DNA of 63,975 nucleotides, filler included, from Candidatus Woesearchaeota archaeon (GTDB taxonomy: Archaea > Nanobdellota > Nanobdellia > Woesearchaeales > BM511), in NCBI GenBank assembly GCA_023266675.1. It is 5 parts of 5 records of this genome, joined end to end, with 100 filler letters (N's around TTAATTAATTAA, not from the genome) between each part and the next. Parts side by side here need not be neighbours in the genome. Positions count along the whole stretch, not along the records: positions 39,871 to 48,676 come from JAHFPP010000056.1; 4 more parts are not named here. One strand, written 5' to 3'. Of this stretch, positions 42,001 to 48,000 are shown in pieces. Position numbers: made by a program. Positions within the stretch are counted from its first letter, which is position 1. Each line of letters opens with the position of its first letter.

Positions 42001-45000
42001 ACCTATCCATAATTTCTCATCTTTTTATTGTTTGAACTGTTATATCATACTTTGATTGTATATAGTAATCTAAACCTTTTTATATACTTTATTGATTTTA
42101 ATTATCAATAAGCAAAATTAAGGTGGAAGAAAAAATGAAAGAATCACGACAGACAAAACAGAAAAATATCCTTGAAAAGAAGCTTAAAGAGCAAACAAAA
42201 TTATTCAATGCAGAAGAATTGCATAACGAAGTAAAAAAAGAGGATAAAAATATAGGAATTGCTACAGTCTACCGTTTCTTAAAAGAAAACCTAAAGAAAC
42301 ACAGCATCCATTCATATGATTGTAATAGGAAAAAGATTTACTCATTAAAAACAAACAATCATTGTCATTTTAAATGCGAAAAATGCGGAAAAACTGAGCA
42401 TTTTGACATCAAAGAGGTAAATTTTTTAAAAGAAAAACTGAAAGGTGACATATGCAACTTTCAGATTGATGTAAATGGAATATGCGAGGAGTGTAAACTT
42501 AAAAATCAACGTTTTCCTACTTTATAAATTTCCTTAGCAATCTCTTTTATCCTATCCACCTCTGTAAGCGTTTTGAATAGGAGTTCGCCATAATCATGAA
42601 CGATTATCTCTTCATCTTTAATTTTTATCACTGCAATTATTACAGCATCTTCAACTGTTTCAAAATTCTTTGTAATTTTTCTTATGTCAAGCAACATTTT
42701 CTTTTTTGGTTTTGCTGTATACGCTGATTTGGTTTTACACTCACTGACAACAAATTCTTCATAATTTTTTTTATCAAGAAGAGAGTATTCACCAATGCAA
42801 ACCATGCATTTAGCACTTTTATTAACCTTGAAGTTTTCAAATTTGTTTTTCCAGACATCAAATCGCATAAGTTCTTTTGACGGATTTTTGCCAAGAATGA
42901 TTTTCAATGCTTCAGCAACCTGCATTGATGCAACAATATGCGTTGTTGAACTAATCACACCATCAGTATCACATGTTGCAAGGTTCTTTGAGTCATTAAA
43001 AATACAGCTAAGGCATGCACCGTCAGCTAATACATTATATACTACTCCAATTGAACCAGATGCAGCGCCGTAAATAAAAGGAATCTTTCCCTTTTTTGAG
43101 TATTCATTTAGAAGAAACCTTGTCTCCATGTTGTCTGTGCCATCAATGATGACATCAGCTTTTATTTTGTCAATATTCTCTGCGCATATCCTTTCAGTTA
43201 TTGCTTCAATTCTGACATTTGAATTTATCTTTTCAAGATGTATCTTCAATGCTTCAACTTTATACTTTGAAACGTCATTTTCAACATATAATGACTGTCG
43301 TTGGAGATTGGACTCTTCTACTTTATCATTGTCAAATATTTTCATCCTACCAATCCCGGCACGTACTAGAAGATCTGCACTGACGCTGCCAAGAGCGCCG
43401 ACGCCAACAATTGTTATCGATGAGTTTTCTATTCTCTTTTGTCCTTCTTTTCCAATCTCTTTAAACAATTCCTGCCTTGAATATCTATCTGCCATAACAT
43501 ATGGGGAATTATATCCTCTTAAAAAGGTTTTTGAGAAATAAGTAAATAATGATATTACTTATAAGTAGTTAAAATATCGAAAAGTTTATAAACTTACACT
43601 TCTCATTATATAATATGAGATTAAATAGACACGATATCTTAAAATATGCAGGTGCAGCGGCAGCAAGCATAGCATTAAGCATGTATGGATGCAGCAAAAC
43701 TGACGCACCAACAGAATCCAAACAATTAGGTCTTGAAAAAAAGATATTTATATACACTCAAAGCCTGACAAGCACAAAAAACGATGAGCTCGTGCTGCAG
43801 TCTTCTGACTTTTGGATACCTCACCTTTATGACCTCTCTTTTGATAGAACATATGAATCACGAGATACAGGCAAGAAAAAGACTGTAAAGAAAAAAATAA
43901 AAGGCAAATGGAAAAATGTTTCTGAACCGATATATACTGATGTGCTTGTAAAAACAACACCACATTTAACAAATAGGGCATCGCAAAAATCAATAGATAA
44001 CTTTGTTGATAAATCCGGAGAATTATATATAACTCCAATGCTAGGTGTTCAAAATACAGAAGACATAAAAGAACTCCTTTTAGACCCCAAAAAATATGTC
44101 TCATTAATTGCAGACGAGATAAAAAGGAAAGGATTTGACGGGATAACTGTTGACATAGAGAGGGAAACTATTGGAAAAGAATACAGCAGACAGCTTGTTT
44201 CATTCATGGAGGAATTAAGGCGTCAACTCCCAACCAAGGACTACACAATATCAATTGCGGTCTCTCCGCGATTCAAAGGTTCAGAAAAAAATTATCCACA
44301 CCACGCTTTTTATGATTATAACAGTCTTGAAAAACACGTTGATTATATCCATCTTATGTGCTATGATTTCCATAAGGGAGTAAAAGGAAATACGCCAAGG
44401 CCAGTATTAAGCGACTCGGAATTAAAAAAAGTTCTGGACTATGCCGTAGAGACAATTCCAAAGGAAAAAACAGTAGTGCTACTCCCTTTCTATGGAGGGC
44501 AATGGACAGTAAAAGATGTATTAGTAGGAAAAGGAAAAAAGAGACATACAGAACAGGCATTCTCAAAACCAAAAGCGTTAAGCGCAGATTATCAGAGCAG
44601 GAATATGAGTAATTTTAACATCAAAAATAAAACTTATGATAATGGAGAACTACGCATAGAAACAAAAGACGGAAAAATAATATACGGGCAGGATGAAAAA
44701 GTTTTTAGTGACCGCCTAAAAATTCTTGATGCTTATAACGTGCCAGGTGTAGGTGGATGGAGACAATCACACGCGTCAACAGAAATACTTGAAACATATA
44801 AAGGATGGAAACCAAGCACATATAATCTTGGTGCATTCTTTAACAGACTGTTTGGCGCAAAATTATTCTAAATATTAACTGAACTAAACAATATCAAATT
44901 ATTATTCTTCCAATAAAATAAATCTTATTATCTTTTCCTGCAAGATGATTGACATATTTGACAAATTTTTGTATTCCTTTTTTTCTATTCAAAAGTGTAA

Positions 45001-48000
45001 TCGAATTATGTGACGATAAAATTTCAGAATATTCTCCTGTTCCGTCAACATAGATGATGCCACCGCCGCAGTCATTTCTCATTTTTACGGAAAAGTCAAT
45101 TATTAACTCCACTGATGGTTTCTCTATTGTTTTGTCGTTTATCAATGTGTAGTCTTTCCATCCAAAAACGCGAATCTCTCCTTCTATCTTTTTTATCTTT
45201 TTCCCAATAATTGATGAAATATATGCTTTTAGAAATTCGTTGCTTATAACCTTCTTTATTGATTCTGGAAGCACAGATTTTTTATACGAAAATTCCATTC
45301 TTCTCCTGCACACTTTAAAATTTATAGCACTTATCTCGCTAATCATTCTGTCAAACTCTTTTCTCTCAAAAAACTCCATCAGCGTAACGCTTGGCAGCGC
45401 ATTATTCTTGTAAAACTCCTGACTTAATTTTTCTACAATCTCAGTAGACAGGTAACCCTTGTTAATCATGAAACCACCCACCAAGCGCAAGTCTCTTTTT
45501 CTTAACAATAACTTCTTCAACTTCATGAAATGAGATTTTTGAGACCTCAAAGAAAACAAACGTATTTTTTTTAGGAATTATCCTAACTTTTGCATTCATC
45601 TTCTTATCAAAGAATAGGAGTGCTCCGCCATCATTCCTTTTCATTGTTGAAAGATAAATTAAAAACGCAATCTTTCGACCAGTAACCATGTCATCATGGC
45701 ATAACAGGTAACACGCATCCTCATAGATGCTTCCTGCAAGATCAATTTTTTTTCGTCCTAGCGTTAGTCCGCTAATCTTTTCCATGTAAGAAATAAACTC
45801 ATCTGAGATTAGAAACTCTCTAAATCTAATCAGCACATTCTGTTTTGATGAAACTAAATCATTTGTCTGCTTAACTTTAAATAAATCAGATTCTTTTAAG
45901 AAAAACTCTTCTTTCTTCAATGCAATTTCAATCTCTCTTAACTTCTTTGCTCTAAAAAAATTATTAATCTCAATATGCGAAAATGGTTTGGCATCTTTGA
46001 ACTGTCTTGAAAACTTGATTATTCTATCTTCTGTCAAATAGTCCTTATTTATCCAATTATTAATCTGATTCTCTTTCATATCTTATCCACTATCATTCTT
46101 ATTTTTATACTTTATCCTGATTATGTTTATTTTTTTCCATATTCTCCAAATAAGAACACAAGATATAAATAGGTTCATCTTTCAAATAATTATATGAACA
46201 CTGAGTGCATACGCTGCAAGGGAAGAAATTTTTGCGCAAGAACATATTGCCCGCTTATCTCAAAAATATCTGCGCAAAAAAACGTAAACATTTCATCAAA
46301 ACAGGATTTTTTTGGAAAATCACCAAACATATTTGTTGGACGGTATGGATACCCCGATATTAATGTAGGATTCTTATCAACAGAACAGTATACAGAAGAA
46401 GATGCGCCGATAAACTGGACAATGAAAAATTATGGCATCCAAAAGATAATTGATTTGCGAACAAGCCTTGTAAACTCAAACTTCAAGTCAAATATTAAGA
46501 CGTTTGATGATAAGCTAGTTGATATGGGTAAAGAGATTGCGCTCTCAAGTAAACCAGTTGATGTTGAGATTAATCTAGAAAAGAAGCCATCATTTGAACT
46601 CTCATTTAATCAGGATGCAATGCCTCACGGGCCAAGCGTAAAGCTGAAAAAAGCTAGCATAACTGAGAATCCAAAAATACCTACAAAAGTTGACAAAGTA
46701 ACATCAGACACAGACCTTAAGGCGAATCAGGGATTAAATTTGCTGTACAGAAAAGGTTATGATGAGCATTACCTGACAAAAATATTTTCTGTCGGCACGC
46801 TTGGAATAAAAGAAAAAAGAAAACTTGTACCGACTCGCTGGGCGATAACAGCAGTTGACGACACTTTAGGAAAACAGATGGTTAGCGAGATAAAAGAATA
46901 CAACGTAGTTGATACATTTTCTGCCTATTACGGAAATCATCTTGGTAACTATTTCCTTGTACTTATATTTCCTGAAGTGTGGAGCTATGAACTTTTTGAG
47001 ATGCCTGTCTCCTCAACTGAATACACTCATGATGTAGAAGGATTTAACGGACGAAATGCATATGCAGAAGAAACTGCAGGCGGATACTATGCTGCAAGAC
47101 TTGCAATACTTGAACGGTTAAAACACGAAAAAAAGCAGGGGTTTGCGCTGACATTAAGATTTATTTCAAATGATTACTGGGCGCCGCTAGGCGTATGGGT
47201 TGTGCGTGAAGCAGTAAGAAATACTATGAAGCAAAAACCGATAGAGTTTTCATCAAAGGAACTCATGATAAAATATGCAAAGTCGCTTTCTAAGAAAAAA
47301 TTTGGATATGACATCACAAAAGTTTTGGCAGCAAGCAAGATTCTTAACGAACACCACACTCAAAGAAAACTTTGGGAATTCTAAATAATCCAATAATAAA
47401 TTAATCTATATTGATCTAGCAATATTATCATAATCTGTTTTTTCTATCTCTTTAAGTTTTTTTGCAAAAACCTTGTATGTCCGCGGTCCGACTTCTGTTA
47501 TTATCGAAAGCTTGTCATAAAAATCGCGAAGTGATATCTCCTTTTTAGTTAATTTTTTTGAAAGAAGATAATCATCTTTTCGCTCGTATGTTCCAAGAAT
47601 CTTAAGTGTTTCTGAAACAAAAACAATCAATTTGTCAGTTTCATCAACATCTGAAGGGGTATAGTCTATCTGCAGAGCATCAAAACTTGTCATCTTCTCA
47701 AAATCCTCTTTTTTAAGCCTGTATAAAAAATATTTATTCATATTCTCACTCTATTTTTTAGATAGGTGTCAAGTATTTCTTTTAAATCTTCTTCTTTTTC
47801 TGCTTTTAATAATCTTTGCCTAAGCTCTGATGCGCCAAAAACACCTTTTGTAAACCAAAGTGCGTGAGTCCTGATTTCGGATAATTTAAATCTTCTCTGG
47901 TGTGTCTTGTAAATCTCCATCAATTCAATAAAACCGTCAAGTTTTTCCTCTGGCGTAACTTTTTCATACGATCCGTTTCTTAAATAATTATTGATTTGTG

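What a model noticed while it worked through the whole genome (the two positions that open the first line are those of the whole stretch)
44894..46079. Archaeal OGFOD1/Tpa1 ribosomal prolyl hydroxylase encoded as two overlapping genes (catalytic half + Ofd1 C-terminal hal [...]
g00567 and g00566 are the two halves of OGFOD1/Tpa1/Ofd1, the uS12 (RPS23) prolyl hydroxylase described as eukaryote-only: a catalytic 2OG-Fe(II) domain and the degenerate second DSBH domain, as an overlapping gene pair. The pair is conserved in Nanobdellota and in three Heimdall/Kari-archaeote bins, so the eukaryotic two-domain enzyme has a split archaeal counterpart; the predicted substrate is the conserved Pro of uS12 (KQPNSA in g01265).
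Evidence so far: g00567 hits only OGFOD1/Tpa1 in PDB (E 8e-29, call 34) and keeps HxD..H and the substrate-groove residues listed in PMC4396695; a profile of g00566 homologues hits the OGFOD1 CTD (E 7e-26) and Ofd1 CTD. 15 of 151 order genomes have the C-half, all 15 directly behind the N-half; 76 of 80 best GTDB loci have both halves as separate ORFs, none fused, 2 of the 4 misses at contig ends. Longer homologues that carry a name are all eukaryotic and form one side of the tree. PMC4396695 states the subfamily is found only in eukaryotes (passages, call 45); searches 31, 35, 46, 47 found no archaeal report.
(Added by a program. Inside this text positions count along the whole contig: they may not be those of the stretch shown here. 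"Call 12" and the like, gene names such as g00115 and contig names such as C1 are that model's own, and its searches are not shown. The text may have been shortened before it was handed on; [...] marks where a part breaks off. The agent that wrote the report below was given it as the finding of a first reader that could run no searches.)

Follow-up and report, generated by a model that had tools for sequence, protein, structure and literature searches.

The report
Archaeal two-subunit OGFOD1-like ribosome hydroxylase
A small groundwater archaeon carries, as two overlapping genes, the working half and the helper half of the oxygen-using enzyme that modifies a proline in the decoding centre of yeast and human ribosomes; the pair is common in one group of tiny archaea, its activity is untested, and one 2026 table already lists a match in Asgard archaea.

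Summary
Confirmed. Window 45462-46079 (-, 205 aa) is the catalytic domain and 44894-45469 (-, 191 aa) the metal-less second domain of OGFOD1/Tpa1, as two genes overlapping by 8 bases. The catalytic gene is in 75 of 401 genomes of the phylum; 74 of 77 loci have the second gene right behind, none fused, in all three relative frames, so two coupled proteins, not a frameshift. Eight of ten substrate-groove residues match human OGFOD1, and the two strongest inter-gene covariation pairs include the known Tpa1 domain contact. Best reading (about 0.7): a heterodimeric Fe/2-oxoglutarate prolyl hydroxylase for uS12 Pro63; activity untested. In Asgard archaea it is rare (6 of 400, one order, all six with a haem-copper oxidase) and nests among Nanobdellota in the best tree, though Asgard+eukaryotes is not rejected (AU p 0.10); direction of origin is open. 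'No archaeal report' is wrong: a 2026 supplementary table lists a Kariarchaeaceae OGFOD1 match. The split pair and its Nanobdellota range were not found in print in ten searches. This scan noted the same pair in eight other genomes; one note is marked 'in print'.

The parts
45462..46079 (-). Catalytic half (205 aa): OGFOD1/Tpa1 N-terminal 2OG-Fe(II) DSBH domain; H128, D130, H185 metal triad, Y142 and R196 for 2-oxoglutarate
44894..45469 (-). Non-catalytic half (191 aa): Ofd1-CTD-type degenerate DSBH domain with the YTL and FVK cores of Tpa1 motifs V and VI; no metal triad
45462..45469 (-). 8-base overlap holding the start codon of the second gene and the stop codon of the first (translational coupling inferred)
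   Evidence: sequence; conserved junction
45474..45482 (-). G-rich Gly-Gly-Trp codons 4 bases before the second start codon; may double as a Shine-Dalgarno-like element (inference, untested)
   Evidence: sequence
46102..46109 (-). TATA-like element 30 to 23 bases before the first ATG, a spacing that fits a leaderless transcript (inference from sequence, untested)
   Evidence: sequence

Best explanation
The two genes are translated as a coupled pair into two separate proteins that dock, minor sheet to minor sheet, as the two domains of OGFOD1/Tpa1 do. The catalytic half binds Fe(II) and 2-oxoglutarate and uses O2 to hydroxylate (probably at C3) the invariant proline of the KQP motif of ribosomal protein uS12 (Pro63 here), most likely before uS12 is built into the small subunit; the second half has no metal site, props up the short hairpin that lines the substrate groove and completes the pocket. 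The likely effect is tuning of decoding or termination when oxygen is present. Shown: two-gene anatomy, orthology of both halves, conserved active site and groove, co-occurrence. Supported indirectly: heterodimer. Inferred from eukaryotic orthologues only: substrate, regiochemistry, timing, effect on translation.
For: Groove residues listed in PMC4396695 section 12: 8 of 10 identical in this protein (Y96 is F, L159 is V), and across 131 Nanobdellota and 6 Asgard catalytic halves H155, D157, R162 equivalents are invariant, L95, L152, D156, H218, R230, W236 equivalents are kept in 130 of 131. K62-L66-F67-Q71 keeps the spacing of the short OGFOD1 hairpin, unlike the long finger loop of P4Hs. All archaeal second halves and eukaryotic CTDs form one clade (SH-aLRT 99, quick tree): one duplication, true orthology. 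Interface: D65 (Tpa1 Asp86, which contacts the CTD backbone; PMC2847220 section 16) is invariant in 78 of 78; in 104 paired archaeal loci the top inter-gene covariation pairs are N121-C175 (Z 9.3) and N124-C171 (Z 8.3) against 5.3-6.4 maxima in 5 shuffled pairings, and N124-C171 is the Tpa1 His155-Lys613 hydrogen bond described. Co-occurrence: 73 of 401 genomes score for both genes; the 2 with only a second-half match hold broken pieces; one genome keeps both genes on different contigs. Substrate present: KQP invariant in 30 of 30 uS12 sequences; the genome's uS12 matches the 38-residue RPS23 assay peptide of PMC6746446 at 30 of 38 positions (counted by hand). Oxygen link: pair in 6 of 13 COX1-positive and 0 of 34 COX1-negative genomes of the Asgard order; in 13 of 28 Nanobdellota genomes with class I ribonucleotide reductase beta against 62 of 373 without.
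Against: No activity, proteome or ribosome structure. uS12 is the same around the proline in genomes with and without the pair, so it gives no specific support, and no neighbour gene points to a substrate (commonest neighbour in 11 of 104 loci). With phylogeny taken into account the N124-C171 pair is not significant (same way 4.4, opposite 0.6, median p 0.22) and N121-C175 only modestly (8.6 against 1.1, median p 0.02, trait coding chosen after seeing the data). The oxygen counts are across related genomes and overstate significance. The serine of the RxS motif is Ala here (Ala 63, Thr 34, Ser 33 of 131). Nanobdellota lack aerobic respiration (bioRxiv 10.64898/2026.05.13.725050, passage) and this genome has no glutamate dehydrogenase over the cut-off, so the 2-oxoglutarate supply is unexplained. 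324 of 401 genomes show neither gene.
Confidence: 0.7

Rival explanations
1. Same heterodimeric oxygenase, different substrate: another archaeal translation or host protein (as bacterial PPHD acts on EF-Tu), with uS12 specificity a eukaryotic acquisition.
For: Patchy range (75 of 401), gene tree that mixes orders and families, no uS12 change tracking the pair, no conserved translation-gene neighbour. PPHD is the next fold neighbour after OGFOD1/Tpa1 and PolD.
Against: Groove residues whose mutation lowers OGFOD1 activity on uS12 (L95, Y96, L152, R162) are kept as L, F/Y, L, R in nearly all archaeal copies; PPHD is far less similar (17% identity, E 6e-11 against 2e-18).
Confidence: 0.17
2. The catalytic half works alone; the second half is a separate regulator, inhibitor or adaptor that need not bind it stably.
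For: One genome has the genes on different contigs and three loci have 0.4-1 kb between them; L108 shows no second half in 2.6 kb downstream; two loci have only short divergent candidates.
Against: Start-stop overlap in 71 of 74 adjacent pairs and 6 of 6 Asgard pairs; conserved interface motifs and covariation at a known contact; Tpa1 NTD constructs could not be expressed alone (PMC2847220, passage).
Confidence: 0.07
3. One fused protein is made by programmed frameshifting or read-through, or the split is a sequencing error or pseudogene.
For: 58 of 74 pairs share the +1 frame offset; the eukaryotic enzyme is one chain and affects termination.
Against: 14 pairs are in the other frame and 2 in frame behind a stop; a start codon is kept at the junction even where the encoded residues change; no linker sequence is encoded; 0 fused among 77, 53 and 6 archaeal loci (overlapping sets).
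Confidence: 0.02
4. The pair mainly serves as an oxygen sensor or oxygen sink in non-respiring cells, with hydroxylation a signal (as Ofd1 in fission yeast) and not a fixed ribosome mark.
For: Association with oxygen-using enzymes; Ofd1 is proposed as a hypoxia sensor (PMC4396695 section 11).
Against: No Nro1 match in the genome (but the control was silent, so weak); no conserved regulator next to the pair. Not exclusive of the best explanation.
Confidence: 0.04

Closest known systems
Human OGFOD1 (PDB 4NHX/4NHY), uS12/RPS23 Pro62 trans-3 prolyl hydroxylase
   Same: Catalytic DSBH plus metal-less DSBH in the same order; triad, 2OG ligands and 8 of 10 groove residues; TM 0.86-0.88 for each half
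   Different: Two genes, no proline-rich linker, no acidic insert in the second domain, no N-terminal extension; activity untested
S. cerevisiae Tpa1 and S. pombe Ofd1 (uS12 prolyl 3-/3,4-hydroxylases; PDB 3KT1, 4NHK, 6E0T)
   Same: Motifs I-IV in the first half and the cores of motifs V and VI in the second; top fold hits
   Different: Lacks the Tpa1 dimerisation inserts; no Nro1/Ett1 match found (control silent); no SREBP system known in these archaea (my knowledge)
Kariarchaeaceae iESP row matching OGFOD1 (Koestlbacher et al. 2026, PMC12962969, supplementary file 3, Data S3 row 693)
   Same: Family named after the same genome as locus L098; best hit Xenopus OGFOD1; 5-225 covered, which fits the catalytic half by length (my inference)
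   Different: One table row, not discussed in the main text (0 hits for hydroxylase or oxygenase); no second row for the other half found; says nothing of the split or of Nanobdellota
Pseudomonas PPHD (EF-Tu prolyl 4-hydroxylase, PDB 4J25/4IW3) and PHD2
   Same: DSBH prolyl-hydroxylase fold, HxD..H triad
   Different: Single domain, long flexible finger loop, 15-17% identity; no second degenerate domain

Membership tests
OGFOD1/Tpa1/Ofd1 uS12 prolyl hydroxylases | HxD...H iron triad and Tyr/Arg 2-oxoglutarate ligands in the first domain | tested here: met
   H128, D130, H185, Y142, R196; RxS serine is Ala
OGFOD1/Tpa1/Ofd1 uS12 prolyl hydroxylases | Substrate groove residues and short beta4-beta5 hairpin (motif I) | tested here: met
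   8 of 10 identical, same spacing; motif I matches but for Tyr to Phe
OGFOD1/Tpa1/Ofd1 uS12 prolyl hydroxylases | Second DSBH domain without metal site, with motifs V and VI | tested here: met
   PF10637 over cut-off; YTL and FVK cores; distal His position is Val; one clade with eukaryotic CTDs
OGFOD1/Tpa1/Ofd1 uS12 prolyl hydroxylases | Both domains in one chain joined by a linker | tested here: not met
   Two genes in all archaeal loci examined; so filed as a split orthologue that works like the family, not as a canonical member
OGFOD1/Tpa1/Ofd1 uS12 prolyl hydroxylases | Domains pack against each other through the motif I / V / VI interface | tested here: inconclusive
   Covariation points to the known contact but rests on few independent changes; no complex model could be run
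OGFOD1/Tpa1/Ofd1 uS12 prolyl hydroxylases | Hydroxylates the KQP proline of uS12 | not testable with these tools
   Substrate motif present; needs assay or MS
OGFOD1/Tpa1/Ofd1 uS12 prolyl hydroxylases | Nro1/Ett1 partner (fungal members) | tested here: inconclusive
   PF12753 not found in the genome, but no control genome rang
Single-domain prolyl 4-hydroxylases (PPHD, PHD2, CrP4H) | Long flexible beta2-beta3 finger loop; single DSBH domain | tested here: not met
   Short OGFOD1-type hairpin and an obligate-looking second-domain gene
Programmed frameshift or read-through gene | One conserved frame relation and a conserved recoding site | tested here: not met
   Frames +1, +2 and 0 in 58, 14 and 2 of 74 pairs; start codon kept at the junction

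The most novel reading that the evidence does not exclude
The two-gene heterodimer is the ancestral, pre-fusion form of OGFOD1: oxygen-dependent hydroxylation of the decoding-centre proline arose in archaea by tandem duplication of a prolyl hydroxylase, spread among oxygen-exposed but non-respiring Nanobdellota, passed from them to aerobic Kariarchaeaceae, and reached stem eukaryotes from an archaeal (possibly DPANN) source before being fused. Not excluded: eukaryotes form their own clade under both paralogue roots, archaeal diversity is about as deep as eukaryotic, and eukaryotic CTDs nest weakly among Nanobdellota second halves.
Probability: 0.25. Interest if true: 0.85.

Novelty: new variant of a known kind. 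Interest (0 to 1): 0.56.

Why it matters
OGFOD1/Tpa1 marks a proline at the decoding centre in eukaryotes, the role of its dead second domain is unsettled, and the structural paper calls the subfamily eukaryote-only. A natural two-subunit form of about 400 residues lets each domain be tested alone and together, gives a minimal scaffold for an enzyme-uS12 structure, and predicts an oxygen-dependent ribosome mark in small archaea that do not respire. It also warns that an OGFOD1 match counted as an Asgard eukaryotic signature is far commoner in Nanobdellota and may have reached Asgard archaea sideways. The value is lowered by the lack of any activity data, the unresolved direction of origin, and the existing table entry.

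Tried and rejected
Search for longer (fused) relatives with the second-half alignment: none of 7994 candidates scored, weak evidence, since fused eukaryotic proteins did appear. Two viral-contig scans: no relative (30 and 371 pattern matches, none confirmed). Plasmids and phages: only distant single-copy oxygenases at 23-29% identity (21 and 1 records), five used as outgroup; one did not stay with the others in the tree. Bacterial or methanogen carriers suggested by record titles: three such loci lie at the same contig positions as genomes ranked 'same order', and L131 nests among Nanobdellota; the Staskawiczbacteria-named P0118 was not checked. Mis-binning of Asgard loci: rejected on shared gene order in four genomes and a 995-kb contig; neighbours were named by eye, as two Pfam calls failed on my coordinates. 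Rooting by the paralogue tree gave conflicting weak answers. Conserved neighbours: none. RNA: no RNA holder listed. Second 2026 table mentioned in an earlier scan note: not found in supplements of PMC12872458, PMC13734099, PMC10307638 (one file cut); one recalled DOI was not held; bioRxiv supplements are closed and two scanned PDFs were unreadable. Other archaeal phyla and bacteria were covered only by one narrow-pattern scan of all GTDB species (53 loci), which found just 3 of the 6 Asgard carriers, so absence elsewhere is not shown.
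Full report
What is there. The window is a string of contigs; the finding lies on an 8.8-kb contig, C28 of the genome. Two minus-strand genes, 45462-46079 (205 aa) and 44894-45469 (191 aa), overlap by 8 bases. They are flanked by a convergent GH18 gene and a divergent nre gene, neither of which recurs beside the pair elsewhere. 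The organism is inferred to be a Woesearchaeales-type member of Nanobdellota from the names of its closest homologues.

Identity of the halves. The first protein scores PF13661 and PF13640 and in the PDB hits human OGFOD1 (E 8.3e-29) and yeast Tpa1 (E 1e-19), with nothing else below E 0.1. The second scores PF10637 over its cut-off, and a profile of 17 relatives hits OGFOD1 at E 3.6e-33 with its best stretch in the C-terminal domain. AlphaFold2 models at pLDDT 97 have OGFOD1, Tpa1 and Ofd1 entries as all top Foldseek hits, TM up to 0.92 and 0.88, ahead of PPHD and PHD2. Against the residue lists in PMC4396695 (sections 10 and 12 read), the first half keeps the metal triad, the Tyr and Arg that hold 2-oxoglutarate and 8 of 10 groove residues; these are near-invariant in 131 Nanobdellota and 6 Asgard copies (the 131 include near-duplicates from overlapping searches). 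The second half has lost the distal His and the acidic ligand but keeps the cores of Tpa1 motifs V and VI (PMC2847220 section 16).

The split is the rule. The first half is in 75 of 401 phylum genomes, all at least 90% complete, 64 in the window's order and 11 in other orders of the class. A second-half profile on the same sample rings in 75, 73 of them shared; the two extra hold only broken pieces. Of 77 loci from 76 genomes, 74 have the second gene directly behind; of the three misses one has it on another contig and two have short divergent candidates with coupled starts (single-sequence E 1e-6 and 6e-5). In the GTDB scan 51 of 53 loci hold both as separate ORFs, three of them 0.4-1 kb apart and one damaged. 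No archaeal locus is fused. The second gene is in frame +1, +2 and 0 in 58, 14 and 2 of 74 pairs and its start overlaps the first gene's end in 71 of 74, which excludes a programmed frameshift and fits termination-reinitiation coupling, shown for archaeal gene pairs in PMC6728339 (abstract only). Fused hits were five among the best 150 representatives: four named eukaryotic, one unnamed (P0132) that groups inside eukaryotes; seven intact fused ORFs from metagenomes are taken as eukaryotic from their inserts and tree position.

Do the halves bind? No complex model could be run. Indirect support: D65, whose Tpa1 equivalent contacts the CTD backbone, is invariant. In 104 paired archaeal loci the four top inter-gene covariation scores (Z 9.3, 8.3, 8.1, 7.7) exceed the maxima of five shuffled pairings (5.3-6.4), and the second, Y124-K171, is the His155-Lys613 bond that Kim et al. 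describe between Tpa1's domains. Shuffling ignores kinship: on independent tree pairs Y124-K171 goes the same way 4.4 times against 0.6 (median p 0.22) and D121-H175 8.6 against 1.1 (median p 0.02); the fourth pair shows no clear pattern of states. I count this as moderate support.

Substrate. The genome's uS12 (C71:3132-3566) has KQPNSA with Pro63; KQP is invariant in 30 of 30 sequences from carriers and non-carriers (29 of 30 genomes searched gave one), and 30 of 38 residues match the RPS23 peptide that Tpa1 hydroxylates (PMC6746446, passages). So the substrate is available, but nothing in uS12 or in gene neighbourhood singles it out; the case rests on orthology and the groove.

Oxygen. In the one Asgard order that has the pair, it is in 6 of 13 genomes with COX1 and 0 of 34 without (Fisher p 1.6e-4). 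In Nanobdellota it is in 13 of 28 genomes with class I ribonucleotide reductase beta and 62 of 373 without (odds ratio 4.3; two sub-cut-off matches counted as without). Kin are not independent, so these p values overstate. This genome has that reductase subunit and a superoxide dismutase but no glutamate dehydrogenase over cut-off. Nanobdellota are reported to lack aerobic respiration (bioRxiv 10.64898/2026.05.13.725050, passage); Kariarchaeaceae and Hodarchaeales are described as aerobic (bioRxiv 10.1101/2024.07.04.601786, passages).

History. Asgard carriers are 6 of 400 genomes searched, all in one order of 47, which holds a genome labelled Kariarchaeales in PMC10307638 (supplement row); none was found in the other 353 with this query. 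Shared gene order argues they are not mis-binned. In the concatenated tree (50 of 148 paired rows, chosen for spread; IQ-TREE C20) eukaryotes are one clade (100/100), the six Asgard rows plus one metagenome row are one clade (98/93), nested among Nanobdellota (85/99) (same in the 115-row FastTree). Forcing Asgard with eukaryotes costs 20.7 log units but is not rejected (p-AU 0.103). In a tree of both domains with five distant oxygenases, all second domains form one clade (99), so the duplication happened once; eukaryotes are sister to archaea in the first-domain subtree (81) and nested among Nanobdellota in the second (88), both weak, with long branches. Only 8-11 eukaryotic rows were available. 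Thus a transfer from a crown eukaryote looks unlikely, Nanobdellota-to-Kariarchaeaceae transfer is the best-fitting reading for the Asgard copies, and fusion in eukaryotes against fission in archaea is undecided.

What is in print. PMC4396695 says the subfamily is found only in eukaryotes (passage). Ten full-text searches (listings seen) gave no paper describing an archaeal OGFOD1 or the split pair. But supplementary file 3 of PMC12962969 has one row calling a Kariarchaeaceae family an iESP with best hit Xenopus OGFOD1; the main text does not mention it (passages). Passages of bioRxiv 10.1101/2025.11.07.685452, 10.64898/2026.10.28.762692 and PMC12395588 and supplement searches of PMC12872458 and PMC13734099 added nothing. 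Database labels such as 'Tpa1-like' on the first half are automatic. The scan recorded the same pair in eight other genomes; these notes are not independent support.

Verdict. A real, widespread two-subunit orthologue of OGFOD1/Tpa1 in Nanobdellota and one aerobic Asgard lineage; most likely a uS12 prolyl hydroxylase (0.7); a new variant of a known kind, partly anticipated by a table entry, and directly testable.

Noticed in passing
P0132: Unnamed 426-aa fused two-domain protein on a 23-kb contig, with no N-terminal extension and a short linker; groups inside eukaryotes (88/82). Its source could not be read; if prokaryotic it would be a fused prokaryotic form.
   Followed up: partly
L094, L098, L160 (Asgard loci): The pair lies convergent to an HMG-CoA-reductase-like gene and behind leuC/leuD-like genes; in L137 and L161 a pelota-like gene lies just upstream and a TtcA/CTU1-like gene downstream. 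Names are by eye; probably local gene order.
   Followed up: partly
G309 (L056, L074): One genome has two complete pairs on different contigs, at different places in the tree; one contig is only 1.9 kb, so binning is uncertain.
   Followed up: no
L276 (G281), L277 (G291): Only broken pieces of the pair remain: second-half fragments split by stops or frame changes and no intact catalytic gene; looks like decay.
   Followed up: partly
L015 / L143: The catalytic domain sits at the end of a 353-residue open frame, about 145 residues longer at the N-terminus than usual; possible fusion to another domain, not examined.
   Followed up: no
L164 / L165: Genome with the two halves on different contigs, each among unrelated genes, both intact.
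   Followed up: yes
L169, L202, L211, L217, L219: Eukaryote-like copies all break near profile position 158-161 of the first domain; probably a conserved intron position.
   Followed up: no
window 43615-44871 (+): GH18 (chitinase-like) gene with a signal-like N-terminus, convergent with the pair, ends 22 bases from the second half's stop.
   Followed up: no
   Followed up: no
G000:C66:6307-7161 and C35:3204-3503: This genome has a class I ribonucleotide reductase beta subunit (28 of 401 phylum genomes over cut-off) and an Fe/Mn superoxide dismutase, signs of oxygen exposure.
   Followed up: partly
record titles: Many small genomes titled Methanosarcinales, one Acidobacteriota and one Patescibacteria carry Nanobdellota-type pairs; three checked coincide with same-order genomes, so the titles look wrong.
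   Followed up: partly
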